The translations under genes were made by a program, and so were the position numbers. The notes below the pieces were generated by a model. That model was not told where the DNA came from. It did not search any database and worked only from the letters and a program-made list of their open reading frames with translations. Of a stretch of 64,000 bases of DNA, positions 4,719-38,300 are shown in pieces. The DNA lies in assembly GCF_036971445.1 (NCBI RefSeq), contig NC_091474.1:77748001-77812000 (forward strand), written 5' to 3'. The DNA comes from Narcine bancroftii. Taxonomy: Eukaryota. Within the stretch, counting starts at the first letter, position 1. Every line of letters starts with the position of its first letter.

Positions 4719-4893
4719 ATGGGAGGGAAACTCTCCGTCAGTTCCAACAACCATGTCGTCATAGTTGGTGGGGGCTTTGGAGGGATCGCAGCCGCCAAAC
4801 AATTGTCCAACCACAGGATCCCTTACACACTGATTGACATAAAATACGCCTTCCACCACAACATGGGGGCTCTAAGAGCATCGGTACAGGAAG
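4719..4893 (+). CDS. AIFM2: AIFM2 paralog A coding exon 1 (MGGKLSV...RASVQEG)
   Basis: Acceptor cacag ends 4711, ATG 4719, FAD-binding [10 protein letters not shown], donor G|gtaaat. Confidence 0.95.
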
Positions 4894-7800
4894 GTAAATT
4901 GGAGGAAAATAAGGGGCTCTGCAATCTCTACCTTAATTACAGTAAAACCCCTGGTATCTGGAATCCATATATTAGACTTACCCAGGTTTGTCCAGTCTCT
5001 TCCTGTATCACATATCCTCTAATCCAGACAACATCTTGCTAAATCTCCTCTGTACCCTTTTCAAAGCCTCCACATCCTTTCGGTAATGAGGCCACCAGAA
5101 TTCCACACAACTTTAAGTAAAGCCTAACTCAAGTTTTACATAACTGAAACATGACTTCCTTCTACAGCGCTGCTCCCAATGAAGGCAGACATACCATTTA
5201 TCTTTACCACTTGATGTACTTGTGTGGCCACTTTCAAAGATCTATGGATCATAACTCCCAGATCCCTCTGCAGGTTAATGCTTTCCCCCTACATTTCATT
5301 TCTCAGATTACAACCACTTACACTTGTCCAGATCAAACCCACATGACATTCCTTTGCCCAGATCTGTTACTGTTCCATATCTTGTTATATTGTTTGAACA
5401 GGATTGTTCACACCTCCATCAATCCTTGTATCATCTGCAAAATGATGAACTGTTCAAGTTTTACCATTCACAGCTCTCCAGTGTAATGAATTCCAAAGAT
5501 TCATTAACCTTTGGGTGAAGACATTTCTCCTCATTTCACTCCAAAATGGCCTACCTCTTATTTTCAGACTGCAACCCCTAGTTCTCGATACATCCGCTGG
5601 GAGCAAACACACTCTCCAAATCTATTCTATCAATGTGTTTGTCTGTTTCAGTGATGTCTCCTCATAGTCTACCAAACTTGAGAACGGGAGCTGAGACACT
5701 TGTCTCATAAAGCAGACCTGCTATCCCGGGGACTAGTGCAGAAAAATGATTGCATTCCATTGAGAGCAAGTATGTGTTTCTTTAGGTGAAAAGAGCAAAG
5801 TCCTGTATTCAAAGTGTGGACTCACCAAGGCCCTTTGTATTGTGCTAAGTCTTAAACAATACTCAAACATGGATTATTAAATGAAAAGTAATGTTCACAT
5901 CACATGATGCCAGGCAATGACAATCTCTAAAATAAGTCCAACTACCCATCCATTACATTCATTGACTTTGCTAATCATAAATTGTATTGTTGAAGGAGGA
6001 ACTTTAGAAGTTGTACATCTTGCCTCACTGTACATTATGTTCCTAATATTTTCATACCATCTATGGAGAGGGTGCGGAGGAGATTTACCAGGATGTTCCT
6101 GGATTAGAAAATAGGTCTTCTGAGGCAAGGTTAGAAAGGAGAGATTAATTAATAGACGTCTACAGCATTATGAGAGACACGGATAAGGTAGATAACCAGC
6201 ATCTTTTCCCAGGGTGGGAGTAGCAAACACCAGAGGACATCTGTACAAAGAGAAGGGAGGGAAGTTTAGGGAAGACATCAGGGGAAAGGGTGCCTGGAAT
6301 GCCTTGCCAGGGGCAGAGGTGGAGGCTGGAACAATAGGGGCATTTAAGAGACTCTTAGACAGGCACATGGATGAAAAAAATGGAAGGTTATGAGGTAGAG
6401 AGGGTTTCATTTTTTTTTGATAAGTACATACAAGTTGGCACAACATTGTGGGCCGAAGGGCCTGTTCTATGTTCTATCAACTGTAATGCATATTTTAAAT
6501 TAGGGTTTGCAAAGAAAACATTCATATCGTATGACCTGACTTTCAAAGAGAACTTCAAACAAGGCAAAGTAAGGGATATTGATTTGGAAGACCAAGGTGT
6601 CATTATGGAGAATGGAGAGGTAAAAAAAAAGAATATTTCTTATGATTTAATAAGTTGGATTTTAAGATAGTTCTCAAGTGTTTCAACTCCAACAAATACA
6701 GTGCTTTAATTGTGTTTTAAAGGTCATACATTACTCGCACCTTATTCTGGCAACTGGAAGCACAGGCCCTTTTCCTGGAAAATTAATTGAACCAGTTAGT
6801 AGAGAAACTGCCATCGAGATGTATGAAGATTTAGTAAAGGAGGTAATATTTCAGATTCCAGATTTTAGATTTATTGTCAGTGTACATACATGACATCACA
6901 TCCCTGAGATTCTTTTTCCTGTGGGTGAGGCAGAATTACCACTTATTGGTAGTACATACAAAATAAAACTGATTCCACTTACACATGCAAACAAAGAAAT
7001 AAAAGCAAACTGACTGTGCAACACAGAGAGGAAAAAAAAACCAATAAAGTAAGAGTCCTTAAATGAGTCCCTGAGGTCTGATGGTGGAGGGGTAGTAGCT
7101 GTTCCTGAACCTGGCAATGTAAGCCTTGTGGGACCTATACCTCTTTCCTGATGGTAGCAGCGGGAACAGAGCGTGTGCTAGGCGATGTGGATCCTTGACG
7201 ATTGCTCTCCGAAGGCAGGGCTCCCTGTAGATGTTCTCGATGGTGGGAAGGGTTTTACCCGTGATGTCCTGGGTAGGCCAGCTAGCTTGTCTCACATGCA
7301 GTTTCTATCCATTTTGCTGTCATTCCACAAGAAAGGATGGTCAATATCTATAAGATCATGAATCCCGTTTCTTCTCTAGATTCCTTATACAGGCCAGATT
7401 CTCTGTTCTCACTAAATCTAATGCCATTATCACTAATTAGCTGCCAGTGAAAACTGTAGAAGCAGACACAACAACAGCAGCATTCAAAATAGATTTGGAC
7501 CGGTTTATGGATAAGAGGGGATTAGACTAAGTGGGATTAGACCATATTGGTTGGCATGGACAAGTTGGGGCGAAAGGCTTGTTCTAGCCTCAATGACTCT
7601 GAGGACTCTATCCATTGTTATACCACTCAGACACTTCGAGGACTATTTGCAACTGCCAACCGTCTTTTCCTGCCTGATTATTGGTGGACGTGGTGGTCAC
7701 ATCACTGATGCTCATTGTTACCTGAAGCCTGTCTGACACATTTGAGTCCAGAATTTTGCTTAGGGCCTTAAACTCCAAGCTATTGAGCTCACCTGTGTTT

Positions 7801-10800
7801 AAAGTAAATTGATTTTTTTCCCCCCTCTAACATTCATGTATTTTCATTGCCAAATTCTCCAATAATTTTGCAGAATTAATTTGGTTACGTTTGAGTCAAT
7901 TACTTGAATTTTGCTGAAAGCAGAAGTAATTAATCGGGCCAAGTTTTGATAGAAATCTTTTTTAAGAAATGTATAATAATTGGGGCTCTGATTTAAATGA
8001 CATTGCATGATATATAGAATAAAATGTTCCTTCTTCTAAAGATGCACAAAGCTAACATTTCCTGCTTAATTTGTGCCATCTTGTGGAATTGAAATCCACT
8101 AAAAATATACATTTCTGACTGGTGGGGTGGCAGGTTTAAATTCAACTTATACCAAGGTGATATATTCAAATCACGAATGTGAAATGAACGTCATATATTC
8201 CTGGTGTGTTTGGCTCACGGAGTGGTTTAGTTTCATTTAATCAGGGCAACACAGTTAGCACAATGCTGTTACAGTGCCAGCAACCGGGGTTCGAATCCGG
8301 CGTTGTCCGTGAGGAGTTCTTCCTGTGTCTGCGTGTATTTCCTCTGGGCACTCTGGTTTTCTGCCACCTTTAAAAATGTATGGGGGTTGTAGGTTAATTG
8401 GGCAACATGGGGTCATGAGCCAAAAGGGCCCGTTACCGTGCTGTATGTCGAAAAAAAAAATGTCGAAGCTTCTTCCATTTTCTTGGCCAAATTTTATCAA
8501 AGGAACAGCAGCAGTTTGTTGGTCCCTGAACCGACATCAGTGAAAAAAAAGACGTCATCTATTCTTTATCACATTAATGTTTGTGGGATTTGGCAATGCA
8601 GATTTAAGATTTGGCAATTGAAGATTTAAGATAGAAGCTGTACTGAAATTTTAAATTTAAATTTAGAGAAACAGCACATTAACAGGCCCTGCCAGCCCAC
8701 GATCATCTGCTGCCCAAATACCCCAATTCTCCTACAAATCCCCGAACATTTTGAAAGGTGAGAGGAAAGCAGAGCACTTGGGGGAAACCCATGCAGATAC
8801 GGAGAAAACATACAAACTCCTTACAGATTCGAGCCCAGGTCACTGGCGCTGCAATAGCATTGTGCTAACCGCTATGCAAACCGTGCAGTTATCCACAGAT
8901 CACATTGGGATAACAGAGAACGTGAAAGGTTCTAGCTTAATTCATCCCTTTCTTTTTCTTCTGCCATATAGATTCAGGAAGCTGAAACAATTGTTGTAGT
9001 TGGAGGTGGGCTTGCTGGTGTTGAGTTAGTAGCAGAGATCAAAACTGATTACCCCACCAAAAAGGTAACTTGGTCCCTATAAAGTTTCAGATAAACTTTC
9101 TGTTTTATGTCTGGCTACCCGGTAGCAGTGGCAAGTGCTCATGAATGCCTGGAAATTGATATATTTGCATATCTTAGAGAAGGTGCTACTTTTACCGTTT
9201 CATGAGCCCAGTGATGTTTATATTTCAGATCTATTGCATGGAACCATAGAACATTTCAGCACAGAAATAGACCACTTTGGCCCTTCTAGTCAGTGCTGAA
9301 CCATTTTTTTTTTGCTTACACCCACTGACCTGTACCCTGACCATAGCCCTCCATACCTCTCCCATCCATGAACCTGTCCAAATTCCTCTTAAATGGTACA
9401 ATTGAGTCCACATTCACCGCTTCAGCTGGAAGTTCATTCCGTACTTCCTCCGCTCTCTGTGTTAAAAAAATCACCCTCATGTTCCCCCCAAACTTTTCCC
9501 CTTTTACTCTAAACCCATGACCTCTGGTTTATATCCACCTACCCTCAGTGGAAAAAGCCTATTTACATTTACTCGGTCTATCCCCCTCATAATTTTAAAT
9601 ACCCCTATCAAATCACCCCTCATTCTTCTATGGTCCATGAAATAAAGTGTTAACTTGTTTAACCTTTCCCTGTAACTCAGTTCCTGAAGTCCATGCAACA
9701 TCCTAGTAAATCTCTGCATTCTTCCTATCTTAACTGATTTATTTCCTGTAGTTAAGTGACCAAAACTCCAAATTTGGTCTCAGCCCAAGGTTCAGACCTA
9801 TCCTTCTCCATAATTAATTAAACTGATTCTTTTCTCTTGCTGTTACCTCCATTCTCCAAGTCGACAAATGAAGCCTTAATGAGTTCTGATGGATGATCAT
9901 TATCTTTGTCCACAAATGCTTCCAAGTCTTTCCATCATTTTATGGATTTATCTCAGCCCTCAGTGTCAGTCATACTTAAACCTGATCCATGCTTATGTAA
10001 TGCAGTGGTCACAGGTGACCAATGTTTCCTTCTCATTCCCTGCGTTTCACAAATCTAAGATAGAAGCTTCCTTCTTTAATTCCAAATGAACCAGGAAAAA
10101 TACCTTGGAAAAGAGTTCAGTCATGAAATTATGGATGTCGCGAGACCAGCTGAGTTCTTCCAGCATTTCCGTAATTTTATTACAACCACAGCGACTGCAG
10201 ATTTTCGTGTTTCAGAAAATATATTGGTTTTGAAATCAGAATGCTTCTATTTTTTTTTCAGCCCCTTAATTACTTCACAAAGTGGAACATGATTACAACT
10301 GCTTCCGGCTGAAATGGCTCCACTCTGCCAATTTGACTGAACACATCTGGGCATGATTCGCTCTTGAATAATTTATATGGTTTCCACTTTAGTCATATGG
10401 GAGAGGACATCATTTTCCATTCAATTTTCTTTTTGAAACATTGCAGGTTAATTGGATCTAGTTGGCCTGTGAGTGAGAGAGTTAGACTCTCCATGGACAA
10501 CTCAGTCTTGCACATTGATCTTGATCCTTTGGAGAGGTCTGCACATGACAATACCCAACCCCTGCCCTTTGAATCACCCCTGCCCTTTGAATCACCCCTT
10601 CCCCCCGAGGCAATTATACAAGGCTCACTACTAATGCCAAACCCTACCCCAACATTCTTGGCTCCAACCCTCTGATCTCACTGACTTCCACACCCCCACC
10701 CATATCTCCACCACCACCCAGAAACCTAACCTTAGTTATGAGGAGATATTGGACTTTTGTGACATTCAAAAATATCCACAAGTGAAAAACTTTAAAAAAC

Positions 10801-13800
10801 AAGGAATAAAACATGTGATAATAGCTTCAAGCTAACACTTTTGTGAGAATGCCCTGTACAATCAGGCTCAAGGTTTCAATCAAACAATTTACTGTAAAAT
10901 GATTTTATGCTTCACTCACATTCTACAGATTCCTTACAGTAGTTTTAATCAGTTCATCCTAGCTTTAATATTAAGATTTGCAATCACATCCATTTGGAGT
11001 TGTTCTGTTCTGGTACTGAGTCTCTGGCACCATGTTGTTGAGTTCAAGCGATCACTCAATAAGCCTGATGCAGACAACAGCAACACTGGTGAATTTCAAA
11101 GCTGCCAAATGAAAATATTTTTGGCCTTTTCACAAGCAGTGAACCACTTTGATCTCAGATTACACTCTGCCATATGCTCCACATTACAACTTTACAAGGC
11201 TGGGTTTATTCTGTGCCATGATTAGCCACTGTTTCTTCAGAAGCTGCCTACTGTTTCAGGTGATTAATTCTGTTTTCCATCTGGTTCTCCTCACAATCTC
11301 TTGTAGACGTTAAGGAACAGACCGAGGTCCTGCTGGGGTAGCTTCGTCTTGTCTTGGCAAAATCTAACCTTTAATCTTTTGCAATTACAGAGAGATTTTG
11401 AACTTCGGGTTATTATTAATTATTCAGGTTTAAGTTTTAACCTGAGAGAACTCCACTTCTTCAGCATCCATAAGACTTCTGAGACACGATTCTGATGGCC
11501 AATATGAGGGAAAGGTTATAGCACAAACGAAGCCTTTTGGCCCATCCAGTCTATGGTGGTTTTAACTTACTCTCCTTCCTCTCTCTTCAGCATTGCAATT
11601 ATTCTTTTCTGTTAAAGACTTATCTTGCTCCTTCATGAATGTCACAATTGAATCTGCCTTCCTTGCAGATTCTAGTCACTGTATAGCAAACTTTACCTCA
11701 TTAGAAGATCGAGGAACTTTCCAGAATTTTATTTTGGATTTTAAGAATTGGAAAATGTTATTTCAAGTTCCAACACAATTAAACTGTGAAACTCACCTAG
11801 TTGACTGGTGCCACAGCAACAACCTTGCACTCAGTTTTATCAAAACTAAAGAGTTGATTGTGGAAATCAGGAGAACATGAACTAGTCCTCATCGAGGGGT
11901 CAGCATTGGAGAGGGTTAAGAACTTCAAATGCCTGGGTATACCGTGGAGAGCATTCTGGCTGGTTGGATCACTGAATGGAATGGAAGTGCCAATGCTCAG
12001 GACAAAACTACAGAGAGTTGTGAACTTGGCCAGTGGCGTCATGGTCATCAGTCTTCACTCTATTGAGGACATGTCTTGAGAAAGTAGCCTCTTTCCTCCA
12101 AGTCCCCCATCACCCTCTTCACACTGCTACTGTCAGGAAGGAGGTACAAGAGCCTGAAGACAAACATCCAGAGGGACAAGGACAGCTTCTTCCCCTCCGC
12201 CATCATATTTCTGAATGGACAATGAACCACAGACACTACCTCACTTTCTCTTGCACTCATTTATTTAGTTTTAAATGTAATTTATAGCAAAGCAATATTT
12301 GCACCTGTAATGCTGCCACAAAACAGCGATGTTCATGACAATAAATTCTGATTTTTTTTTCTCTCTCTTTCCAGGTAACACTAATTCATTCCACTTATAT
12401 TCTGGGTGATTCTGAGGTTTTACCCAGTGTTAGGAGAGGAGTGAAAGAAATTCTTGTGAATAAAGGGGCCCACCTTCTGCTAGGTAATAAAATATAAATC
12501 AATGTTACATTGTAGGATTAAAACTGCTATTGATTAGATCAATTAATGTAATGACATTTACATGTACAGTTACAATAGAAATATCTATTCCAATTGTTGA
12601 TTTCATGAAACTATGAAACACTTTTGAGAAACGATGTTATTACTTTTATCTCACATATTTTATCTTATTTATAAAGTTAATTCCTATTTCAAGTTCATCT
12701 TATAAACAGTGAAATATTATCACTATCCTGTGAGAGGAAGGACATGGGGCACCACAGTTGGCATATTGGTTAGCACAACGTCTTTACAGCACCAACCATC
12801 AGGATTGGGTTTGAATCCCGCGCTGTCTGTACACTTTCCCCGTGTCTGTGTGGGTTTTCCTCGGGGGCTCTGATTTCCTCCCACCATTCGAAATGTACCA
12901 TGGGTTGGAGGTCCATTGGGTGTAAATTGGGCACCACGGACTCTTGGGCCGAAATGGCTGCATGTCTAAATATTTAAAATTTTTAATTTAACAATGTAAA
13001 TGGTTTTGAACCTGATTTAATGAAATATAATACATTATATTTTATTCCTTCATTTTTTGGGTGTGTATTTTGAATGTTGGTGAGGAAATGATGCATATTC
13101 AGGCAGGAGAAGAATGCTGTGACTTACTTATGGAGAGGAGGGTGGCAATAAATCTATGTTTAAAGAAATCTATTTTCAATGTTGCCCTGTAACTTATAAA
13201 TCACAACTAATTCTCTGTAACCAAAGCTTATGCTTGTGCATGATCCAATTAGATCTATTGCAAACCCCATTCTATCCACAATGCCTTGAAAATGATGTCC
13301 TTTTATCAGAAGTTTTGCTCCATTTGGGTTTGACTGAACCATGTCACATTCCTCATCCAAGAAGGAGAGGAAAGTGGCTGCCACTGTACATCTCCCAATT
13401 GTTGCTACTTGGTAGTTGATAACAAGAAGGAGATCTCTACCACAAGTTTTCCTTCCCTTCGTTGGGGAAAATACTGGGTTTCACTCTATGTTCATGCAGT
13501 AACATTTTTAAGATTGGAATTCAAATTGACATAAAATTATGCCCATGAACCTGGTTCAAGTCACTCAATGGCACAGAGACACATGCAATCCCAACAATAA
13601 CACTGAACAACTATTTTTTCCAAATGATTTGCTTCCTAAAATAAATGGGGATTATGATGGACAACTTTAAGATTAACACAAATATAAATTCTGATTTGCT
13701 GTATCATGTCGGAGAAACATTAAATTAACTTGTATTGAATTTAGTTTGTTTAATCACAATTTTAATTATGTTGATGCATTGTGTTAGTTCAACTGTCCTA

Positions 13801-16800
13801 AAAATGTTTTGCCGCTGATTTTCCTTTGTACTCAGCATCTGATGCCTCTCGTGTCAGTGTCCAACAATAGTCAGCCAGCATTGATGGATTCCAGAGCCCT
13901 TGATACCGCTTTTCCATGGTGGCAATGTCCTAGTGAAACCTTTCACCGTGTTCGTCATTGACTGCTCCAGGATCAGCAGGGAAGAAGGACAAATGCAGAA
14001 AATTAATTTTCAATGACATGTTGAACTTCATGGTTTTGTATGCTTGAAGCAGACTTAAAATATGACAGGAAATCACAAAAAATGGTTATATCTACAATAA
14101 ATTTTAGGTGATTTTTGTGATCAGAAATCCAAGATCCATAAAATGCACCTAAAAGTGTTCAGGAAGCAAGTTGTTCATTGTCCAGTGTAACCTCCATCTT
14201 TATTGGTTCCGCTAAATGGCAATTGGCTTCAAGGAGCCCAATTGTCTCACAATCCGAATCACAGCATATTTTGCATTTTCTTCTTTCCAAAAGGACATAA
14301 AGTCAATAACCTGACAGAACTTGTTCTGAATAAGGCACAGAAAGACCTGAGAGTGCTGACAAACAAAGGGCAGGAGATCATAACAGATATGGTTATCTGT
14401 TGTACTGGATTAAAGATTAATTCTTCAGCGTACGCCAATGCCCTTCGTAAGTTCTAATTCCAATGTGTAATCATTTGTATAAGATCTGATAATGTCTCTG
14501 TAGCACAGTCTGTCTTGATCTCTGTTTTGTGGTGATGCAAACATCCCTTTCATTTGCAAAGCTTTGGCTGTCTAATACTGTTTGACTAAAGAATCTTAGC
14601 TCCAAAACACGTGAGGAATTGCTCCATCAAAATCTCTGCAGCTCTGAAGTATGAAAAGTAACTTTGCGAAATATTCATGATTTATCTCCAGAACAATTTC
14701 ATCTGTGTATATTTTCTGTGTTTAAAATAAAAATTTACACGGGTGATATGGAAAACACGTGATTTGTGGGCCAACAAACAGGTGGAAATGTCAACTATTA
14801 CACGAGTATATATGGTACTGTCTTACTGCAAGTGTTTTTATGAATGGTACAGCTGTGGGGGTCATTTGAATTTGACTGCTCTTTGGTCTGTTAACCCACA
14901 GCTTTCCTGAACCATCAAGTAACTTTTCCCATTGCTGCCCAGAGGATTTGACACAAGGTACAGCCATTGAGGACAGGCACCAACTCCCTGAAGAGCTGGG
15001 AAGTTCTCCAGGGTGCAGGCCAACACAGAACTCAACCAACATCATGAACAGAGATTAAATGGCGATTACTCTCTCTGCTTGACCATTGTGCTTTCCTGTA
15101 CTTTTCTAACTCTTCAATAGTGTTCCATTGGTTTAAATATCATAAGGGCAATAGCATATCTAATGTTAGTGTCTCTTAGACAACATCCTGAATAACCTAG
15201 GTAAAAACCAAACAACTGTCACTGAACATCAAAAAATGACTTTCCTGGGTCACACCTAAATTACTCAAAAAACAAAATAGATACTAACTGTGTCTCAAAC
15301 AAATTAAACCGTACACATTGAGTCATTAGAATAGAACAGGGTTGAAGAAGAGTACATTGTGTGACCTCTTTCTTTTTAACAGAAAGTACCCTCACCGAAC
15401 ATGATGAAATAATAGTCGACGAACATCTGAACGTCAGGGGAATGAAGGCTGTTTTCGCGATCGGAGACTGCGCACATGTGAACGAACATAAATCAGCTTA
15501 CACTGCTGAGTTCCAAGCAATGACATGTGTGAAAAATATCATCCACAGCCTTAAACATGAACCTATGGAACTATACAAACCAGGTAGATATGCTGGAAAC
15601 TCACTCCAGAAGGTCAAGGTCATCTGTCATTTATGCTGCCTCAGTCACATGATATTTCAAAGGGCTATCAATGGGGAACTGAAAGTTATTCTGAACCTGC
15701 ATTGAACCTTAGACAATGCTTGGGTGAATGCATAAAATTCTAGTTGTCATATTAAATTTAATTTAGACAAACCGCACAGTATCAAGCCCATGTCGCCTGA
15801 TTACACCAAATTGTCCAACTCCCCTGATTAGTTTTTTTTTTGGAAGGGTGGAGCAAACAGGAGCACCCTGGAGAAAACCCATACAGACATGGGGAGAATG
15901 AACAAATTCCTTACAGACAGCGCCGGATTCGAACCTTAGGTCACTGACGCTGCAACAGCGTTGCGCTAACCACTACACTTATCATGCCACTCTTTATTGT
16001 TCAATGTGGGGAGCATTTGGGGACTGAGAAAACGAGAGAAGATTTAAAGAATGCATCTGAAATGCAAGGGAATATAGGTCAGGAATGGATGAACAGTGAG
16101 CTCGTAGAGTAAAAGAAGGCAGAGGATCTTTAAATTGAAGAAGGGTTTTGACAGAGTAGATACAAGCAGGAATGAGCATAATTCAAGATTAGAGTCTCCA
16201 CCAAATACACTGGAACAATTTCAGAATGAAATGATTAATTTTAGGGTGACAAGGTTAGCATAACACTGTTACAGGACCAGCGACCATGTCCATATGGCTT
16301 TCCTTCGGGTGTTCTCGTTTCTTCCCATCTTCAAAAAGAAACTAATCAGGGGAGTCGAACAATTTGGTGTAATCAGGTGACATGGGCCTTGTGGGCATGA
16401 TACTGTGCGGTATGTCTAAATTTTAATTTAGAATGGGGTCACAGAGCTACAGTTCTTAGAGTCATTGCCTCAAAGTGCTAGTGACTTGATTTACTCCTGA
16501 CCTCAGATGCTGTCTGGGTGAGTTTGGATGTTCTCTTTGTGTTGCCTCCTGGCACGACAGTTCCCTCCCCCACTCCAAAGATGTGTGGGTTGTTCAGTGA
16601 ATTGGCTGCTGTATGTTGGCTCCAACATATATATTGAATTTGCAGGGCGTTGATGAGAACATGCAGAGAATTAAAATAATAAAATTAAGGTAAGATTTGT
16701 GCAAATTGGAGTTGATAGTAAACAACAAGGAGGATGTAGTTTGACAGAAGGATAACAATCAACATTTTCATTTCCAAACAAGCACCCCTCCCAAGACAAT

Positions 16801-18469
16801 TAGATATCTTATCATACGTTCTGTGATAAAGAATATTAAAGTATTAAGTTCCAAAAGAATACATTTGAATAGACATTGGACTTAATCCAACTCAATCATT
16901 GTGCATACCTCCTGTACTTTTTACATATCAATGACACGTGTTCCATCATGACCTCTGCGGAATTTATGAGTTCTGCCTTCAAGCACAATGCCTTTACAGC
17001 ACCAGTGATCGGCACCGGAACCAGGTTCGAACCCCGCGCTGTTTGTAACGAGTTTGTACGTTCTCCCCGTGTCTGCGCGGATTTTCTCCGGGGGTTCTGG
17101 TCTCCTCCCACCCTTCAAAAACCTGTAGGTTAATGGGGTGTAATTTGGGAGCCACAGACTGATTGGGCTAAAATGGCCTTATTACAGTGCTGTACATTCT
17201 AATTTTAAAATTTAAACAATCTTCCCAAATTTCAGTGACATGCAGGTGGATTAATTAGCTACTGCAAACTGCCCCCAGTGTAAGTGAGTGGCAGGGAGAG
17301 TTGATGTGCTCAGAAACATTCACAGGAAATAAGTGGAAAAATGAAATCATTCCAAAACCCTGAGAGCTGGCAGAGAGGATGGACCAAATGTTCTGTTGTT
17401 ACATCACATGAAAATGTCCGGCAGGGCTGGCCAAATCTTTTTGGTTGTGGCCTACACACAGTAAAATGTAAGGAGTCGCAGGCCAAACAATATTAAGACC
17501 GGCAGTTTTCAACCAGTTACACTGCAAGAAAAAGTGTTTTGAAACCAGTAAACTCCTGTGCCATGGAAAATTAATTTTCCATCAAAATAATTATACAAGT
17601 CCACTGAACAGTTTAACTGTTGACATTGATGTGCTCACATATTACAGGAGGCATTTCTGTATCTGCTGCTCTTAAATTTAATTTAGACTACAATAAAACT
17701 CTTTAAAAAAAAATCTCCAGTGAATACAGTTCATGGCCCAAGAGTCCACCTTAAGGATTATGATGCAATGAGTAAATTTGTTGATATTAAAGATAAGCAA
17801 TTAAAGTTAACAGATTCCTTGCAAATCAAACAAACTCACTTCCCTTTGACTTCTATGAAAAAGTATTCCACCTTGCTATTTCACGTCTTTTTTGTTCAAC
17901 TGAGGTAAACGTTTCATCAATAAGTAACATTGCAATGGTTGGTGTTGCACCTGTATTGTTCAAAATGGCAGTGGCATCTAGTGTTGAAACTAAGAAGTGC
18001 AATGTTAGAGACTATGCTCCAAAGAGGCAGCTTCCATTTTATTTTTTAAAACTCACCCTTAGGCCACTTACAAATGGGCAACGGGCCATAGTTGGCCCAG
18101 GAGCCTTAGTTTGACCTTCCCTGATGTAGGGCATCCAGTACAGTTTATCCCATTTAAACTTTCTGCATCGAAACCCCTGCACTTCATCTTCCATCCATGA
18201 TTTTGCTCAAGTCCTAGCTACCTGTGGATATAGAACACTAAAAAGAATTGGACTGATCTAAGTCACTCATTTCCTGATCTTGTTGACTGATGTTGTGCAC
18301 TGCTCTGATTGTAGGTGCTCCTTACATGATGGTGACAATGGGCCGGAATGACGGGGTTGGTCAGATGTGTGGATGCAATGTTGGGAAGTTCATTGTGACT
18401 TACGTCAAGAGCAAGGACCTCCTGGTTAAGACAAGCTGGAAAAAAATGGGCCAAAGGATGCCAAACTGA
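4719..18469 (+). CDS. AIFM2: AIFM2/FSP1-like NAD(P)H:quinone oxidoreductase, divergent tandem paralog A (8 coding exons, 373 aa)
   Basis: Exons 4719-4893, 6504-6619, 6723-6842, 8972-9064, 12375-12483, 14294-14446, 15383-15583, 18315-18469; all GT-AG; total 1122 nt in frame with no internal stop. Motifs: MGGKLS myristoylation start, [34 protein letters not shown]. Confidence 0.95.
6504..6619 (+). CDS. AIFM2: AIFM2 paralog A coding exon 2 (FAKKTFISY...ENGE)
   Basis: ttag|GG...GAG|gtaa, 116 nt. Confidence 0.95.
6723..6842 (+). CDS. AIFM2: AIFM2 paralog A coding exon 3 ([20 protein letters not shown]...)
   Basis: aag|GTC...GAG|gtaat, 120 nt. Confidence 0.95.
8972..9064 (+). CDS. AIFM2: AIFM2 paralog A coding exon 4 ([31 protein letters not shown])
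   Basis: tag|ATT...AAG|gtaac, 93 nt, NAD(P)H-binding GxGxxG. Confidence 0.95.
9235..9790 (-). mobile_element. CR1-clade LINE 3' fragment
   Basis: [18 protein letters not shown]...[19 protein letters not shown] is the CR1 ORF2 C-terminus. Related pieces at about 3420-3590, 5060-5480, 6060-6480, 19160-19510, 25630-25910 (QGSVLGP), 44460-44810. Confidence 0.85.
11790..12350 (+). mobile_element. Rex1/Babar-like LINE 3' fragment
   Basis: [36 protein letters not shown]; tail caataaattctgatt. Confidence 0.75.
12375..12483 (+). CDS. AIFM2: AIFM2 paralog A coding exon 5 ([20 protein letters not shown]...)
   Basis: ccag|GTA...CTAG|gtaat, 109 nt. Confidence 0.95.
13601..14187 (-). mobile_element. Internally deleted DNA transposon, probably CMC-Chapaev3 type
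   Basis: TIRs cactgaacaa / ttgtccagtg, TAA TSD; - strand remnant [43 protein letters not shown]. Confidence 0.7.
14294..14446 (+). CDS. AIFM2: AIFM2 paralog A coding exon 6 (HKVNNL...[17 protein letters not shown])
   Basis: aag|GA...C|gtaagt, 153 nt. Confidence 0.95.
15383..15583 (+). CDS. AIFM2: AIFM2 paralog A coding exon 7 (STLTEHD...FAIGDCA...YKPG)
   Basis: acag|AA...CAG|gtaga, 201 nt. Confidence 0.95.
17422..18123. mobile_element. hAT-Charlie-like non-autonomous element
   Basis: Ends cagggctggccaaa / tttgaccttccctg; degenerate 8-bp TSD atgtccgg / atgtaggg. Confidence 0.6.
18315..18469 (+). CDS. AIFM2: AIFM2 paralog A last coding exon ([16 protein letters not shown]...MGQRMPN*)
   Basis: gtag|GT, TGA at 18467-18469; AATAAA at 18596. 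Confidence 0.93.
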
Positions 18470-29169: not shown

Positions 29170-29344
29170 ATGGGAGGGGCAGTGTCCGTGGATGAGGGGG
29201 TCCACGTTGTGGTGGTCGGTGGAGGTTTTGGAGGGATTGCAGCAGGAAGCCAGCTGAAATCCTGCGCGATTCCGTTCACGTTGATCGACGTAAAAGATGC
29301 ATTGCATCACAATCCTGGAGCCCTCCGAGCATCAGTGGAAAGTG
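29170..29344 (+). CDS. AIFM2: AIFM2 paralog B coding exon 1
   Basis: Acceptor ctgcag ends 29162; MGGAVSV...GGGFGG...RASVESG; G|gtgcgg. Confidence 0.95.
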
Positions 29345-32300
29345 GTGCGGTTATGGGAAGAGTTGATTATGGGTCTGAATTCCATGTGTTGCTTTTCGTT
29401 CCTTTCTCTCTCCCATAACTGCCCCGCAATGGCGAATGTGTGAAAATAATGCTTCTCCTGAGGTTTTCTTTTTACAAAAGAAAGTCATCCTTGTTGCATT
29501 AAATTGTACTGCAACTTTGAAGCAGTAATTTTGGGAGAAGGGTATTGATAGTGTTTTATTAACTCTGAAGGGATGAACTCTGAAGATTGAGTGTGCTCTC
29601 CCACCCAATCATCTGGAAGGAACTGCAGGACGGTTGTTAGTTTTATGAAGTTGGAAGACATTTTAATGTAAATAAAAGTCCTAAAATTCCAACTGCTCGG
29701 GGATTGGGTGGGTTTGGATTTTCTGGATTCTTGGGTGGTACCTTTAAAATTCACATTTAAGGAGAATAAAGAAGAGGTGAACAGTTAAATTTTGATAGTT
29801 TATTAACAAAACATTTTTTCATATAAAATACAAAAAAGCTAAATCAATATTTATTTGTTCATTTCTGCATCTGGGGGCGCTTACGCATACACACAAAAGC
29901 CCATTAAATTTAAGATGTTTGAGTTTTTGAGAAGTCTGGGTTGTCAGGTGGTCCAGATTTCTGGACTTTTACTGTAGTTTCATTGCAGATCTAGAGTTGT
30001 CATGAGGATATGTGATTACTTTCTCCCAATGCCCTTTCAGTTCTCCCCACTTTAAGTCGTCTGAATAATCTGCTGGCCTGATTTGGATCTATTGTTGAAG
30101 GTTTGGTACAAATAACAATGTGATGTTCAGGTTTTTTTATCTGAGCAGTTTTCTGTAACCATTGGCATTGCAAGTATGAGCTCAAAGTCTGAAGATGGGA
30201 GAATCTTAAACCAAAACCCTTGGTTGAAGCTCTGTTTTATTAGTCTCCCAACTTGGTGGACCAAGTAGAATTGGCAACTTGCAATCTTATAAGAGATCAG
30301 AGCACTTTGCATGTCATTTGATGTTAGTAACCTAAAAATCTATTGGTCACATCGGTAAACGTAACCACCAATAAAACATCCACAACCTTCTGATGAAAAG
30401 AATTCTAAACCTCACACAGTCCAGAAATTAAAGCAGCTGTTCTTAACAGGGACTGTACAGATCGTGTGGGTGTGTGTGGTGGGGGGGGGGGGGGGGCGGG
30501 GGGGAAGGAGAGGGGAGAGGAGAGAACAGCACATTTAAAGGGGGGGGCTGTGATTGAAACCGATAATTAGGGGGTCCAACATATTCAGGGTAGAAATATG
30601 GAAGAAACTTTACTGCTTCACAGGGAAGGGGTCCTAATATACTTTGAGCAGAGACCTGAGGGGACCATAGCTGAGAAAAGATTGAGAATTTTAAATTACA
30701 TTTTCAGCTTAGACATGCAGCACGGTAACAGGCCCTTTTGGCCCACAGGCCTGTACTGCCCAATGACAGATAACCCTGGTTTGTTTTTGAATGGTGGAGG
30801 AAACTGAGCACCCAGAAGCAACCCATGCAGATGCAGGGAGAACGTACAAACTCCTTATGGACAGCGCTGGATTTGAACCTGGGTTGCTAATTCTGTAACA
30901 GTGTTGCACTGGCTGATCTGAGCCATTATCCCAGCTGATGCTTTTTCTTGTAAAATGCGACCATTGTTGAGATTTTTTGACTGTCTGATAACTAGAAATG
31001 TAGCCAGGTTTTCAAAATAGAATTTTTTTTTTAGTTTTACTTTTTTATTTTATTAGGATTTGCAAAGAAAACATTTATTTCATTCAAAGAGACATTTGCA
31101 GAGAACTTCAAGCAAGGCAATGTCATTGATATTGATTTGGAAAACCAAGCAGTCATTTTGGAGAGCGGGGAGGTAGGCAAATGGGATAAATTGAATGCTT
31201 TAGAATTCCTCTGGTCCCCTACATCCCTCCCTGTCTCTGTGACCCCCCTCTGGTCCCCTACACCCCTCCCTGTCTCTGTGACCACCCCCACTCTGGTCCC
31301 CTACACCCCTCCCTGTCTCTGTGACCCCCCCCACTCTGGTCCCCTACACCCCTCCCTGTCTCTTGTGACCCCCCTCCTCTGGTCCCCTACACCCCTCCCT
31401 GTCTCTGTGACCCCCCCCACCTGGTCCCCTACACCCCTCCCTGTCTCTGTGACCCCCCCCCGGTCCCCTACACCCCTCCCTGTGACCCTCTCCGGACCCC
31501 TACACCCCTCACTATCTCTGTAACCTCAACAAAACTCTTAACTCAATATGCAAGAACACAATTTTAACTGGTTGTTCTGTTTTGAAGGTTGTGCATTATT
31601 CTCACCTCATTTTGGGAACTGGCAGCTCTGGCCCATTCCCTGGAAAATTCAATAAACCAGTTGAAATGCAGAATGCCATCCAGATGTATGAAGATCTTGT
31701 TAAACAGGTATTGTTGTGTTGCAGACTGAATCCAATTTAGTTTTATAATCTGTTGGTACTTGTAAAATAAATAAATAAATAATTTTTTTTCTTCAAATTT
31801 TTTTTGTCTGTTCACAGGTTCAGTCAGCTCCAAGAATTGTTGTGGTTGGAGGTGGATCAGCTGGTGTGGAAATGGCAGCAGAGGTCAAAACTGAATTTCC
31901 GGACAAAGAGGCATGTCGCGTTGTCAGTCTGGATACAAGATGGTGGGTGGTGGGAGGTTAACAGTGGTGCAGTCAGTCAAGTTGTTGCCTTGTCACTCCA
32001 GAAATTCTCCTTTCACCCTCTACTCAATGCAGTTTTTTTTTTGAGTTTGTATATTCTCCTTGTCATCATGTGGGTTTCTTTTGGGTATTCTGATTTCTTC
32101 CCTTGTCCCAAAGATATGTGGGTTGGTATGTACATTGGCTGTTTTGAATTGTGTCTAGCTTTTCTGAGTGGTAGAATCTTGGGGTTGGAAGAGGAAGTTA
32201 AACAAAAGAAAAATCTCCTTTCCATTGCTGGGTCAAGCATGACCTGTTCTCATGGAGCACCTACCCTTCCTGCTTGATCTGTTGTATCCATCTTTATACT

Positions 32301-35300
32301 TTAATGCCTAAATTTAGGGTTAGGGTTATTGCCTCGTGCATTGACATGTGTGCAAGTGTGTGGTCAGAACCTTCAAGTTCCTGAAAATTGATATTTCAGA
32401 AGACTTCTCCTGGAGCCAGCACATTTGAGGCAATTGTGAAGAATGCATGCCTTTTTAACAAGACTTGAGGAGATTTTGCCTGCTGTCAAATATTCCATCA
32501 AACTTCTACAGGTGCACTGCGGAAAGTATCCTGAGTTACAGGCATTACAGCCTGGTTTTGTAATTCCAATGCCCAGGAACGCAGAAAGCAACAAACCAAG
32601 GCAGCTCCATCACAGACTCTGACCTTCCATCCATTGCTGACATCTGTGAGGCACTGCATCAAGAAGGCAGCCAATGTCCTAAAGGACCCAACTCCCTCCA
32701 CCTCCCACCACCCTGCTTGAAATCTCTTTTCTTTGCTACCTTCAGGCAGAAGGTACAGAATCTGGAAAACCAGCACCTCCAAGTTCAACAACAGTTTCTT
32801 TCCAACAGTGATCAGACTCTCCAATCTCCCCTCATTACACCAATGATGGATGGCCTGCTCTGACAGCAGAAAAAGACTGCACTACTTTTTGCACAAGGAT
32901 TGCTGTGAATATTTATCATCCATCGATTTTGTATTTATTGTCTTTAATTCAATTAAGTTTTTTTTACAAATACTCATTCAGCTGCAGCAAGAATTTCCAT
33001 GCTGTCAATGTATATGATGAATTTATTATTACTAGCAGGATACCCGGCGTTGCCTGGGAAATAACACTCAGTTGTTGACTACATGGTTGAAACAGAATAT
33101 CCAAAAAACATCATGGTAATCTGCATAAACTGCCCCTTACCTGTCTGGAGGCCCAAGCACTGAGACAGGCATATCTCTGCTGTTCGGTTTCCTGCTGCCT
33201 GCTCCTTGCATGTCTGGAAGCATCAACAGTGAGCCAAGATGGCTGTTGCTCTGCTTTCTCCTTTGTCTAACTCTACAGGCTTGTGAAGAGCTTCTGCCAA
33301 TGTTGCTTTGCTTTTTGGGGCCCATATTGAACTGGTTTTGGCCACTTGTTTTTATTCTGAATGCACATTGATGCACAGCCCTGTAACTAATTGAGGTGAT
33401 CCTGGTGCAAGTTTAATTTTATTTTGAACTTCATATGACCTAAAAGGATAATCAATGTGGTCATGACATTCAGCATCAAATGTTACCCCTACTGAACCTC
33501 CTTGGACATTTCTAGAGTACTCCATATTGATTTGCATGGAGGACAGACAAACAAACATGCACAAATATATATTAGATAATTGAAGGAAGTTTGTAAGGAT
33601 GAATTCAAAGCATGTTGCTTTGAATTGAGAAAATTGAGATGGAATAAATGGATCATCTACAACTGGAAGGATGAAACTAATGGAGTGCCTGGGGGGGGGA
33701 TCGCAATTGGCTCTCATTTGTTTTCTATTTGTACATGAGCTGGAGGATGGAACAAAATGCAAGGTTGCCAAAATTGTGTGGAAGGGTGAGTTGTGATGAG
33801 GATGTTGATTTTGCAGTGGGTTGTAGATTGAGTGGAAAAACTTGTGAATATGTTTAATGTATGCACTTCAGTGAGAAGTCATATTCCTGTCCCTATTTTC
33901 ATGCGTTTTCCCCCCTGCCCTCCACAATACTAATAATTTCTCTTTTTTTTTAGGTGACCTTAATTCATTCCAAGATTCCTCTGGCTGATGATCAGCTCTT
34001 GCCAAGTGTCAGGCAAGGGTTGAAAGAAATCCTGTTGCAGAAAGGGGTTCAGCTGCAGTTAGGTACATTAGCAAAAGATACAGCAAAACAAAATTGGAAG
34101 GGTGAAGCAATTTCATTGGCCAGTGCCTTTATTTTGAGGAGGGGGTGATTTTACTGTTCCTTCAGTGGCTTGCTAACTTTTGTAAAGTCATCATTATTTT
34201 AATCTATGCAAACAAAAATCATTTGTATTTGGGGTTGGATGTCAGCATAATTATTCCTCATCAAAAATTTGGCCAAGATTTTCAGTTCCAAATCACACTT
34301 TGTGCATCCATGCAATTCCATCATTTGAGTGTTGCATGGGAAGCTGGAGTTTCTTGTTTGGAGATGTGCCTGTTCATCACCTGCAACAAATGCAGGTTTT
34401 AACAGCCTTTCTGCAGGAGGCATCTCTGAACTGGTCCAGACTGGAATCTGACTCTGGTTGCCTTTTTTGTTATAACAGTAAAGTCCCTAGTATCCAACAC
34501 CTATGAAGATTGGTAGATGGTGGATAAGTGTATTTTCCATTTGCTTGAGACTGACTCTTGCAATGCCTACACATACACTGGCATTAAGAATAGTTTAAAA
34601 AGAGAAAACTGCTTCACTGTACAAACACTGAACAAACTTCACTTGTATGAACATATAAAGATTTCCCACTTTTTTACAACATAGTAGGAGTCCGTTCAGC
34701 ACATTGAGTGTATGCCAGCTCCAGGAAAAATCCACTTTCCCTTTGTATTCCTTTCCCTCTCACATCAATCAATGCTTCCTGAATCTCCTACCATCCACCT
34801 ACACAAGGAACAATTTTTAGTGGCCACTGAACCTACGGCACTTCTAGGATGCAGCAGTAACTGGAGCATCCAGCAGAAACCGTGTGACTCCACACATTTC
34901 ACATTGGAGGTCAGGAGGGAACTCTGATTGCTGGAGCTGTTCGTTCTGCAAATCAGTGAGCTTACAAGTCCTGATCCCCCCAGTGGCTAAGCTGAGAATT
35001 CTGTTGAGGAGCACAGAGAATGACCCTTTTGCCTATTGCAGTGGTTCTCAACCTTTCTTTCCACTTGCATGTCTCCTATGCCAGAGGTGCTCTGTGGTTA
35101 GTAAGAGATTGCTTAAGGTGGTATATGAGTGGAGGAAAAAATAGGTTGAGAATCACTGTTCACGAGTCCATACAGAGCACCAACGAGTAGTCCTACGTTA
35201 ATTCTTTTTTTTCATTCCCATCACTAATACTCTCATGAGAGCATTTTGCAGCAGCCGCTTAAGCCCATTGATGAGCACATCTCTGGGATGGGAGTGGAAT

Positions 35301-38300
35301 CTGGAGGAAACCCCCATGTGTCTTGAGGACACCCTGCTAACTTCACGCAGGCAGCAAGGCCATCCCTTGACATTTCTATTTGATTGCAGTTGTGCATTGA
35401 GAAGAACGTGAACTCTTGCCTCTCTGCTGTTTTCCACTAGGGCAGAAAGTCACCAACTTGAATGACTTGGTGATGAATGAAATAAACCCTGATATGAAAA
35501 TATTGACAGACAAGGGTATGGAAATCATTGCAGACATGGTCATCTGCTGTACTGGAATAAAGATCAACTCTTCAGCGTACTCAAAGGCTTTTTGTAAGTT
35601 TAATTCTCTCTTCATTCTGGTGGACTATACTTTCTTTTCTCCTTCCCCCTCACTTCTTTACACTATCTCCCCTTGAAACTCAAGTCCTGATGCAGGCTCT
35701 TGACCTGAAACGTCAACTATCCCTTTGCCTCCACAGATGCTGCCTGACCTGCTGAGTTTAAAATTTTTGCATTACATTTTTTTTTAAATGTTATGTTTAT
35801 ACATGCAACATGGTAACAGTCCCTTCTGGTCCATGAGTCTGTGCTGCCCAATTGCACCTAATTCACCTACAATGTTCATTCGTTTTGAAGGATGTTGGTG
35901 GGAGGAAACCAGAATACCCAGAGGAAACCCATGCTACACAGGGTGAATGCACAAACTGCTTAAAGACAGTGCATGATCTGAATTTGGATTGCTGGCACTG
36001 TAACAACATTGTGCTGACTGCTACGCTAACCATGCTGCCCTGGTATTATGACTGATTCATAACTTTTTGTTATCCTACTGCATTCGACAGTAGTTTATGA
36101 AAATTGGAACTATTCAACTGGAGTGCATGGATTTTATCAGTTTGTTCAAGTGGTGTCCTTTGACAATGATAATTGATGCAGATCAGGATGTGATTGGATG
36201 GGTGTTTGCTGCTTCCTTCAGTTTATTTGAATCAGGGGATCTCTCCATCCTTTGAACAATGTTCACCAGTTAGAAACCACCTTTTTGTCTTTTACCTTTT
36301 GGGTCTTTCCTCTCTCGCCATAGCTAAAAGTACTGTAGAAACGCGTGTAATAGTCTAATTTTTGTGGACCAATTTTTAGGGTAAAATTTAATACTTTAGA
36401 CTGCGGCATGTACCTTCATTGTTTGAGGTATCTGGAGCTCTGGTAAATGGCTGGAGACGAGGCAAGAGTTTGTGGTTGGGGCATCTGGAGCTCTGGTGGG
36501 TGGGTGGACATGGCCTGGGTGAGAGTCCATGGTTGGGGCAAAAATAGGGGGATTGACTTTTACATGGTATTAACTATTACATGGGTATACAGGGTATTTT
36601 TTCCTCCCTTTTATTGATTTTTGTCTGATCTACGAGACCTGGCCATTTCCCCAAAATCAACATGACAGTGTGACTGAGGGGAAGTCACGTGATGGAGTAG
36701 TGGCTGGTCGGGTGGAACCAGCCCTCTCCAGAGAAAAGAAAAAGTGTGAAAAAACAGAGCTCAATAAACATAAAATACAGGAAGAGAAAGATGAAGTTAC
36801 AGAGAAGAGACAGAAGATGGCACCCAAAAGAGAAAAAATAAGAATAACAGAGAAAAGAGAAGAAAAATCACTGGAGAAGAAGGAAGAAGGCCTGATATGC
36901 AAGTCAGAGCAGAGAACCACCGTGGAGAGGAGCGGCCGATCTCTGATGTTGGTGAGTCTCCAGAGGAGTGGTGTCCTCCTAACCAGCAGATTTCAAAAAT
37001 GGCTCTCAGAGCCAAGAGGAGGTGCACAATTGCGCATGCGTGAAATTGCGCATGGGCAGTGTGCAAGTAAAAAAAGGTTAATGCCGGCGGGAGGGGGATT
37101 CAGCTGTGGAGCAGCCAGCTGAGAGACGCCCAGTATCGGGGTGTTCGGCTGGGGGAAGAAAGCTAGAAAGAAGAAAAGAAGAGTGGTGAGAAAGAAAATG
37201 AAGGGCTGGAAGAGGGTGAATGGCAACGGAGTGACTGGCAGCGGGTTGCGGGTCGGCCCCGCGGCGGGTCGGCGGCTCACTAGAGAAGGATGAAGATACA
37301 AAGATGCAGAGAAGATGACACAGACATAGATACAGACACAGAAGAAGAGGAGGAAGACGACTAAGAATTTCAAAGGAAAGAAGGTAAAATAGAAGGACAA
37401 AATTCAGATGAAGCCTTTTTCGAAGAACAAATGAGGTCATTAAAAGAATGGCTATTATTAGAAATTAGTTCAATCAAAAGAAAAATAAGAGCTGAAGACA
37501 GAATGCAAAGCTTAGAGTTGGTCATGACTGAAATAGGGAAAAGAGTAGAAAATGTGGAGGAACAATAAGCTGCTGTAGAATTGGAGATAAATGATTTGAG
37601 GCAAGTTGGAAGAGAGCAAAAAAAATTTGGAGACACAAAATTTATCGTCACAAAAAATTGACATATTGGAAAACTACAGTAGGCGAAACAACATAAAAAT
37701 AGTGGGCCTGAAAGAAGGCAAAGGGTGCTGGGAACGACAGATTCACATGAAGAAATAGAAATCGAAAGGGCACATTGAGCGCTAGTACCGAAACCGCCAC
37801 CACATCAAAAACAGAGATCCATAGTGGTAAAACTCCTAAGACAGGGGTGTCAAACTCAAATTCACGGAGGGCCAAAATTAAAAACTTGGACTAAGTCGAG
37901 GGCCGAACTAAATATTTATTGAAAATTTTCAACAACATCTGCATGTTTTCTCTTCTTTCAACATATGTAATGTTAAACTTTAGGATATAACTTTAGGAGG
38001 ATAATGTTACCGGTCAGGAGTAGGTAGCTCAAGTTCACCCTTTGCTTGACCTGAGGAAAACATTTGGTCCCTGTGGAGATGTAGTCAGCATTAACAGGCT
38101 GTGTCCATTTTGGCCTGCATCAGGACTCAGCATTTCCTGCTCACTCCTCAGACTCTTGGCCTCTATTCACCCTCGACCCACCATCCCTCTACCTGACCAG
38201 TCCTTTACCCAACCTCTACTCACCCCTCACTCCACTCGCTCTGCCTCTACCCACCCTATCCTATACACGCCTCTCTACTGCCTCTCCCCTCAACCTGTTC

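What the first reader, a model, noticed from the sequence alone, without database searches (positions are those of the whole stretch)
15383..18469. Upstream FSP1 paralog has a remodelled cofactor/substrate pocket but keeps the catalytic residues
Seen: coding exon 7 is only 29/67 identical between the paralogs (hand count), against 39/59 in exon 1. Copy B reads [12 protein letters not shown], close to human TPKMAYLAGLHA; copy A reads [12 protein letters not shown]. Copy A also has [10 protein letters not shown] (human GALTFLLSMG) and a new Cys pair, QMCGCNVG. Using human numbering recalled from memory, E156, D285, K293, Y296 and K355 are retained, while P292, M294, G299, H301, T327, F328 and F360 change; several of these line the NAD(P)H/quinone and inhibitor pocket. 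Inference: an active enzyme with altered substrate or cofactor preference.
Basis: partly seen in the sequence, partly recalled or inferred. Interest (0 to 1): 0.75.

Follow-up and report, generated by a model that had tools for sequence, protein, structure and literature searches.

The report
Second FSP1 gene of cartilaginous fishes
Sharks, rays and a chimaera carry a second, intact copy of the gene for the anti-ferroptosis enzyme FSP1 that keeps the catalytic residues but has fixed changes around the flavin and the quinone entrance, so it is likely a working reductase with a shifted substrate preference, which is untested.

Summary
Copy A (8 exons, 4719-18469, 373 aa, intact) is identical to a RefSeq 'FSP1-like' model and has orthologs in 23 cartilaginous fish species, a chimaera among them. 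It is an ancient tandem paralog, not a recent decaying copy. After duplication it changed fast, mostly in exons 7-8 (stem 0.49 against 0.02 for copy B), then froze. All residues known to be essential (D41, E156, E160, G244, D285, K293, K355) are kept in 23 of 23. Corrections: F328M and F360L are shared with copy B, and G299E occurs in active chicken FSP1. Missed changes: V50M, S152L, K176T and A305C. A-private residues are enriched at published pocket positions (14 of 76 against 17 of 286, p=0.002), but a stricter test shows no enrichment (p=1). A switch between NADH and NADPH is not supported. Best reading (0.55): an active membrane quinone reductase with a changed acceptor channel. Near-equal chemistry with different expression is a serious rival (0.3). 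No paper on it was found. Interest 0.45.

The parts
4719..4893 (+). Copy A coding exon 1: myristoylation motif (G2, S6), FAD-binding GxGxxG, V50M
   Evidence: protein identical to P0002
6504..6619 (+). Copy A coding exon 2
6723..6842 (+). Copy A coding exon 3 (an alternative acceptor 21 nt upstream gives RefSeq isoform X1)
8972..9064 (+). Copy A coding exon 4: GxGxxGxE motif with S152L; E156 and E160 kept
12375..12483 (+). Copy A coding exon 5: H174, S175 and D181 kept; K176T, I/V177Y, A180G
14294..14446 (+). Copy A coding exon 6: K208 and G244 kept
15383..15583 (+). Copy A coding exon 7: GD motif D285/C286, K293, A295, Y296 kept; P292H, M294S, H297T, G299E, L300F, H301Q and A305C changed on helix alpha10
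18315..18469 (+). Copy A coding exon 8 (C-terminal domain): L326P, T327Y, L330V, S331T, I/L341M, Cys-Gly-Cys at human 342-344; K355 and S364 kept; stop TGA
29170..42409 (+). Copy B, the conventional FSP1 (exons 29170-29344, 31057-31172, 31588-31707, 31818-31910, 33954-34062, 35441-35593, 40192-40392, 42255-42409); comparator and tandem partner
   Evidence: identical to P0134

Best explanation
Copy A is an intact, ancient tandem paralog of AIFM2/FSP1 kept across sharks, rays and a chimaera; it is likely a myristoylated, membrane-bound flavoenzyme that still passes hydride from NAD(P)H to FAD and on to a lipophilic quinone-type acceptor, and is predicted to differ from copy B in acceptor preference or membrane docking rather than in NADH/NADPH choice. 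Shown: intact gene, separate clade, a burst of change in exons 7-8 followed by fixation, retention of the FAD anchors and the E156/E160/K355 proton relay, and the FSP1 fold. Inferred: catalytic activity; repacking of the flavin seat (V50M, M294S, S152L, the last predicting plain FAD rather than 6-hydroxy-FAD); a reshaped tail channel (L326P, T327Y, L330V, S331T, I341M); and a regulatory or membrane-anchoring role for the Cys-Gly-Cys hairpin tip.
For: Intact 373-aa ORF with GT-AG introns. 23 orthologs from 9 batoid, 13 shark and 1 chimaera species, forming one clade with support 1.00 and stem 0.23 against 0.056 for B; exon 7-8 stem 0.485 against 0.022. Fixed changes at sites conserved in B and bony vertebrates: 18 of 178 in A against 3 of 156 in B (p=0.0015). 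A-private residues: 8 of 42 paper-named contact residues against 23 of 320 others (p=0.017), and 14 of 76 broad pocket positions against 17 of 286 (p=0.0018); B shows no such enrichment. G2, D41, N49, R54, K118, E156, E160, H174, G244, D285, C286, K293, Y296 and K355 are kept in 23 of 23; loss of several of these inactivates FSP1 (PMC10643123, PMC10516921, PMC11333494). AlphaFold2 model pLDDT 94.7, rmsd 0.9-1.2 A to human and ancestral FSP1. S294 and L152 each occur in 1 of 101 distant representatives; the Cys pair in 0 of 125 non-A rows. Human M294I/V, T327K/R and F328S remain functional but change inhibitor binding (PMC10643123), so these sites can reshape the pocket without killing the enzyme. 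Skate A-type proteins lie on intronless contigs of 1.4-1.5 kb, which fits spliced mRNA.
Against: No activity data. With the stricter definition (same residue in at least 85% of B and of bony vertebrates), A's changes are not enriched in the pocket (5 of 48 against 13 of 130, p=1.0), and 0 fall among the 25 FAD-contact positions of that list. Direct CoQ1 contacts change only mildly (L330V, I/L341M). Many A states are common in distant homologs (Q301 56 of 101, V330 54, T331 25, E299 11). V50M and M294S both line the flavin seat and may simply compensate. The S152 rule for 6-hydroxy-FAD is not firm: the tetrapod-ancestor enzyme has S152 and showed no 6-hydroxyflavin (PMC13041786). Model coordinates could not be inspected, so pocket assignments rest on alignment to published residue lists.
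Confidence: 0.55

Rival explanations
1. Subfunctionalisation: A does essentially the same CoQ/vitamin K reduction as B. The fixed changes are compensatory repacking from a period of relaxed selection, and the copy is kept for a different tissue, stage or compartment.
For: All essential residues and the quinone clamp (Y296, L360 as in B and mouse) are kept. No pocket enrichment in the strict test. Several A residues are seen in working or distant family members. Skate cluster sizes hint at narrower expression of A: 2 Logan members of 8, against a 52-member B cluster in which 37 of the 40 read carry no name (weak, indirect).
Against: Strong asymmetry between the copies and near-total fixation of the new residues (human 293-302 identical in 23 of 23; exon 8 A-A identity 0.92 against B-B 0.83); three new invariant cysteines; relaxed-definition pocket enrichment.
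Confidence: 0.3
2. A has gained thiol chemistry. The Cys-Gly-Cys hairpin (human 342-344) and C305 act as a redox relay or redox gate, so the enzyme reduces a disulfide or persulfide acceptor, or is switched by thiol oxidation.
For: C305, C342 and C344 are invariant in 23 of 23 A proteins; the pair occurs in 0 of 125 other rows. Position 344 is chicken Y343, which stacks on the partner subunit's flavin in the chicken dimer and matters for rate (Y343A 53%, Y343F 14%; PMC10516921). The fold is shared with sulfide:quinone reductases.
Against: Cys at 344 alone occurs in 3 of 31 bony vertebrates and 1 of 15 B proteins. The model takes the human non-swapped conformation (rmsd 0.9-1.2 against 3.4 A to chicken), where the hairpin borders the tail channel (PMC12146761). 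In the chicken dimer Y343 is on the nicotinamide side. The quinone-reduction residues are all kept. Distances could not be measured.
Confidence: 0.08
3. A is a low-activity or non-catalytic partner, for instance a regulator of B or an NAD(P)H oxidase that makes H2O2.
For: Chicken K292A/M293A/Y295A is dead while Y295A alone is fully active, and G150L keeps 16% (PMC10516921 supplement), so M294S and a Leu next to that glycine could slow turnover. FSP1 makes H2O2 when quinone reduction is impaired.
Against: Pseudo-enzymes usually lose catalytic residues; here every one is invariant over the whole clade.
Confidence: 0.07

Closest known systems
Vertebrate AIFM2/FSP1 (human PDB 8WIK/8JSC/8YO8, chicken 7XPI, tetrapod ancestor 9IFT)
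   Same: 373 aa, fold (TM 0.95-0.96 to human and ancestor), myristoylation motif, FAD and NAD(P)H motifs, E156/E160/K355, K293/Y296; 55-62% identity over the structural alignment.
   Different: Fixed V50M, S152L, K176T, A180G, P292H, M294S, H301Q, A305C, L326P, T327Y and Cys-Gly-Cys at 342-344. No A-type protein was found in bony vertebrates (word-limited searches).
Copy B, the conventional chondrichthyan FSP1 (RefSeq XP_069741548)
   Same: Adjacent gene, identical exon lengths, 225/373 identical; shares G51, M328 and, in most species, L360.
   Different: B keeps the vertebrate helix alpha10 sequence (exon 7 69% identical to bony vertebrates against 44% for A); B has its own V50P.
RefSeq 'ferroptosis suppressor protein 1-like' models (XP_069741546 and orthologs)
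   Same: P0002 is 373/373 identical to copy A: the gene model is already annotated.
   Different: The automatic name does not separate the two clades; no description as a distinct paralog was found in the searches listed.
[quoted passage not shown]
   Same: Fold (TM about 0.74-0.77) and, for NDH-2, the Glu/Lys proton path (PMC10643123).
   Different: About 17-20% identity and a different C-terminal domain; NDH-2 has an acidic residue selecting NADH where A keeps H174 (PMC10516921).

Membership tests
AIFM2/FSP1 | Glutathione-reductase-like fold with FAD, NAD(P)H and FSP1-type C-terminal domains | tested here: met
   AF2 pLDDT 94.7; the top six Foldseek hits are FSP1, rmsd 0.9-1.2 A to human and ancestor; Pfam Pyr_redox_2
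AIFM2/FSP1 | N-myristoylation motif MGxxxS/T | tested here: met
   G2 in 23/23; S6 in 16 and T6 in 7; sequence motif only, modification not shown
AIFM2/FSP1 | FAD anchors (D41, N49, K118, GD motif D285, C286) | tested here: met
   23/23 each
AIFM2/FSP1 | NAD(P)H motifs GxGxxGxE, H174/S175, G244, K293 | tested here: met
   23/23 each, with Leu at the variable position 152
AIFM2/FSP1 | Proton relay E156, E160, K355 | tested here: met
   23/23 each
AIFM2/FSP1 | Nests within vertebrate AIFM2 in a tree | tested here: met
   A, B and bony vertebrate proteins group apart from invertebrate outgroups (support 0.88); the branching order among the three is unresolved
AIFM2/FSP1 | NAD(P)H-dependent reduction of CoQ/vitamin K and suppression of ferroptosis | not testable with these tools
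   needs enzyme and cell assays
6-hydroxy-FAD-binding (mammalian-type) FSP1 | S152 hydrogen-bonded to D181 (PMC11333494) | tested here: not met
   L152 in 23/23 A; S in 13/15 B. Chicken FSP1 also lacks S152 and is active, so this does not bear on family membership.
Flavoprotein disulfide reductases / SQR-type thiol enzymes | Redox-active cysteine(s) in reach of the flavin | tested here: inconclusive

The most novel reading that the evidence does not exclude
Cartilaginous fishes have a dedicated second FSP1 that was rebuilt once, before chimaeras and sharks split, into an enzyme for a different acceptor or with a thiol switch: the flavin-capping aromatic residue of the C-terminal hairpin became part of an invariant Cys-Gly-Cys that couples NAD(P)H-flavin chemistry to disulfides/persulfides or gates it by oxidation or acylation. 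It would be a natural respecified FSP1 and a second ferroptosis-defence or vitamin K route in a vertebrate lineage.
Probability: 0.15. Interest if true: 0.75.

Novelty: new variant of a known kind. Interest (0 to 1): 0.45.

Why it matters
FSP1 is a drug target whose substrate range (CoQ, vitamin K, oxygen), cofactor form (FAD or 6-hydroxy-FAD) and oligomer state are debated. A natural paralog, frozen across a whole vertebrate class, with substitutions at the residues those debates turn on (S152, V50, M294, T327, the 340-350 hairpin) gives a ready A-versus-B comparison in one species. It also shows that annotation hides two distinct clades under one name. Divergence after duplication is common, though, and no functional difference is shown, which caps the score.

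Tried and rejected
Pseudogene or assembly artefact: rejected (intact ORF, 23 orthologs, pN 0.25 against pS 0.59 between the copies). Species-specific recent duplication: rejected (chimaera has both types). Third copy in this genome: none found, 2 matches of 3 candidates scored with exon 7 of B and with exon 1 of A. NADH/NADPH switch: not supported (H174, S175, D181, K208 kept; no acidic residue; only K176T differs, and human has Q there). F328M, F360L and G299E as paralog markers: rejected. Positive selection: not testable, as synonymous sites between the copies are near saturation (dS about 1.2) and no coding DNA of other species was held. Dating against the bony/cartilaginous split: undecided (FastTree joins A+B at 0.96, but AU tests on fixed trees keep both (A,B) and A outside: p 0.49/0.53 whole with too few replicates, 0.69/0.38 exons 1-6, 0.27/0.77 exons 7-8). 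The first structure prediction on 10 sequences failed (pLDDT 40); a full IQ-TREE bootstrap run timed out. Expression in this species: no RNA holder listed (3 runs, none on record as RNA), and no reads were laid, so it stays open. Dimer prediction: no result obtained. Catshark expression supplement (PMC11979771) could not be read and may bear on tissue expression. The NADP+ structure paper PMC10709417 was not held; its S175/Q176/R208 result is cited through PMC10896247. Earlier scan findings: none returned.
Full report
OBSERVATION. The window holds two AIFM2/FSP1 genes in tandem on the + strand. Copy A spans 4719-18469 and copy B 29170-42409. Each has 8 coding exons of identical length (175, 116, 120, 93, 109, 153, 201, 155 nt) and encodes 373 residues without stop or frameshift; the two align without gaps at 225/373. 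Per exon: 38/58, 29/39, 28/40, 19/31, 22/36, 32/51, 29/67, 28/51. Exon 7 is lower than the rest (Fisher p=0.0023, exon picked after the fact; heterogeneity over 8 exons p=0.046). Human FSP1 from PDB chain 8wik_A confirms the recalled motifs and numbering (human = A + 1 from residue 11). Human numbers are used below. Searches of the own genome with exon 7 of B and exon 1 of A each gave only these two loci (2 matches of 3 candidates scored).

WHAT IT IS. Copy A is 373/373 identical to database protein P0002 and copy B to P0134, both RefSeq 'FSP1-like' models of Narcine bancroftii. A search with exon 7 of A returned 14 proteins of 33 candidates, all from cartilaginous fishes. A search with residues 280-373 returned 15 of 17: the same 14 and one lizard protein at 52%. 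These searches depend on shared words, so absence from bony vertebrates is likely, not proven. With cluster members I kept one full-length protein per species: 23 A-type (9 batoids, 13 sharks, the chimaera Callorhinchus), 15 B-type and 31 from bony vertebrates, 69 of the 176 proteins then held (partials, isoforms, unnamed contigs and further redundant tetrapods left out; two more dropped for an aberrant end or long gaps). A and B each form a clade containing a chimaera sequence (support 1.00 and 0.95), so the duplication predates the chimaera-elasmobranch split (about 400 million years, date recalled). Tandem order seems conserved: A and B share contig lengths and near-adjacent accessions in several species, and a catshark gene model fuses the end of A to B (P0001). 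Whether the duplication is older than the bony/cartilaginous split is undecided.

ASYMMETRY. The A stem is 0.23 substitutions per site against 0.056 for B; for exons 7-8, 0.485 against 0.022; for exons 1-6, 0.141 against 0.060. In exon 7, B is 69% identical to bony vertebrates and A 44%, yet A proteins are as alike among themselves as B proteins (0.81 each; exon 8: 0.92 against 0.83). At sites conserved in B and bony vertebrates, A has 18 fixed changes of 178; the reverse count for B is 3 of 156 (p=0.0015). Ten of the 18 fall among 24 conserved sites in residues 290-331, against 8 of 154 elsewhere (p=7e-6, window chosen after the fact). This is a burst of change followed by fixation, not decay.

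WHAT IS KEPT. G2, F21, G22, D41, H48, N49, R54, V82, K118, G151, A153, E156, E160, H174, S175, D181, V209, G244, D285, C286, K293, A295, Y296, K355 and S364 are present in 23 of 23 A proteins. These include the residues whose loss inactivates human or chicken FSP1 (PMC10643123 results parts 1-2, section 10 and extended legends read; PMC10516921 results parts 1-3 of 4 and supplement part 2 read; PMC11333494 parts 1-2 of 3 read). An AlphaFold2 model on 140 sequences has pLDDT 94.7 and matches human and ancestral FSP1 at rmsd 0.9-1.2 A and the chicken chain at 3.4 A.

WHAT IS CHANGED, CORRECTED. F328M is in all A and all B and in coelacanth, tarpon, cod and frog, so it is ancestral. F360L is in 13 of 15 B and, by PMC10643123, in mouse, rat and zebrafish. 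E299 is fixed in A but also occurs in coelacanth and in the crystallised chicken enzyme. By the papers, V50, A153, M294 and F360 form the seat of the flavin ring, M294 moves when NAD(P)+ binds, and S152 positions helix 6 for 6-hydroxy-FAD (PMC11333494). S175, Q176 and R208 bind the NADPH phosphate (PMC10896247, part 2 and passages read, citing a paper not held). T327, L329, I341, M350 and T354 line the inhibitor-tail channel (PMC12146761, parts 1-2 of 5 read).

IS THE POCKET TARGETED? Two tests disagree, and both are reported. Residues fixed in A and seen in at most 1 of 44 other vertebrate proteins number 31 (6 for B). They hit 8 of 42 paper-named contacts against 23 of 320 other sites (p=0.017), and 14 of 76 broad pocket positions against 17 of 286 (p=0.0018); B shows no enrichment. 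Restricted to sites with one residue in at least 85% of B and of bony vertebrates, the figures are 5 of 48 against 13 of 130 (p=1.0), with none among 25 FAD contacts. The second test was run first; it excludes V50, S152, K176 and T327 because these vary a little elsewhere. Among 101 distant family representatives (counts), Q301 (56), V330 (54), T331 (25) and E299 (11) are ordinary, while S294 (1), L152 (1), Y177 (1), M50 (4) and G180 (4) are rare. The changes thus spare the chemical core and fall on the second shell, the flavin seat and the entrance.

CYSTEINES. A has three invariant new cysteines, at 305, 342 and 344 (23 of 23). The 342/344 pair is in 0 of 125 non-A rows; Cys 344 alone is in 3 of 31 bony vertebrates and 1 of 15 B. 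In the model, 342-343 form the turn of the C-terminal hairpin. Position 344 is chicken Y343, which in the chicken dimer stacks on the partner's flavin and must move for NADH (PMC10516921); human FSP1 was reported as a monomer without this arrangement (PMC10896247). I could not measure distances. A regulatory disulfide, acylation or metal site is inference; thiol catalysis is possible but unlikely.

MECHANISM. Most likely (0.55): a myristoylated enzyme that takes hydride from NADH or NADPH onto FAD and reduces a membrane quinone through the kept E156/E160/K355 relay, with a repacked flavin seat and a reshaped tail channel that shift acceptor preference or docking. S152L predicts plain FAD, although the tetrapod-ancestor enzyme has S152 and showed no 6-hydroxyflavin (PMC13041786, passages read), so that rule is soft. 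A cofactor switch is not supported, since H174, S175, D181 and K208 stay. Human M294I/V, T327K/R and F328S stay functional with altered inhibitor binding, which fits both this reading and the main rival: the same chemistry with compensatory repacking and divided expression (0.3). Thiol chemistry (0.08) and a weak or non-catalytic protein (0.07) remain. Expression: two skate A-type proteins (367 and 368 of 369 residues identical to little skate A) come from intronless contigs of 1,438 and 1,517 bases, which fits spliced mRNA; expression in this species is untested.

NOVELTY. The gene is annotated automatically, but I found no paper that treats it as a distinct paralog: 0 papers for AIFM2 + shark + duplication, for 'ferroptosis suppressor protein' + paralog + cartilaginous and for aifm2 + Callorhinchus; none of the 20 listed of 418 contains 'aifm2'; the 3 look unrelated by title and abstract start. 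The library lacks most subscription journals, and unread supplements may bear on this. Verdict: a new variant of a known kind, real and clade-wide, with function inferred only. Interest 0.45.

Noticed in passing
window 31911-31916: Intron 4 of copy B starts with GC, not GT (GC-AG intron). The RefSeq protein P0134 uses this boundary, and a shorter B isoform (P0015, 340 aa) exists.
   Followed up: partly
window 29170-29344 (copy B exon 1): Copy B has its own fixed change at the flavin-stacking residue, V50P in 15 of 15, against V in 31 of 31 bony vertebrates and M in 23 of 23 A; so both copies changed this site, in different ways.
   Followed up: partly
window 6702-6722 and 8972-9064: RefSeq isoforms of copy A: X1 uses an acceptor 21 nt upstream of exon 3 and adds 7 residues with two more cysteines; X3 also skips exon 4 and so loses the NAD(P)H motif and E156.
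   Followed up: partly
window 55366-55821, 58501-58731, 63523-63771 (- strand): Exons of a fatty-acid elongase gene (Pfam ELO/GNS1-SUR4, for the first stretch; looks ELOVL6-like by recall) lie tail to tail with the FSP1 pair.
   Followed up: partly
window 4719-4736: A proteins carry K/R at position 4 of the myristoylated end in 23 of 23, whereas 14 of 15 B proteins have A/T; this may affect membrane binding.
   Followed up: no
window about 23720-24330, 31200-31520, 43250-43870: G/T-rich and other tandem repeat arrays between or inside the genes.
   Followed up: no
window about 36700-39400: LINE-like retroelement remains in intron 6 of copy B (ORF1-like fragments; label recalled, not tested); many short repeats in the other introns.
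   Followed up: no
P0014 (chimaera A-type): The chimaera A protein has the new helix-alpha10 residues and the cysteines but a B-like start of exon 7, so remodelling went on in the shark-ray stem (stem 0.25 for exons 7-8).
   Followed up: partly
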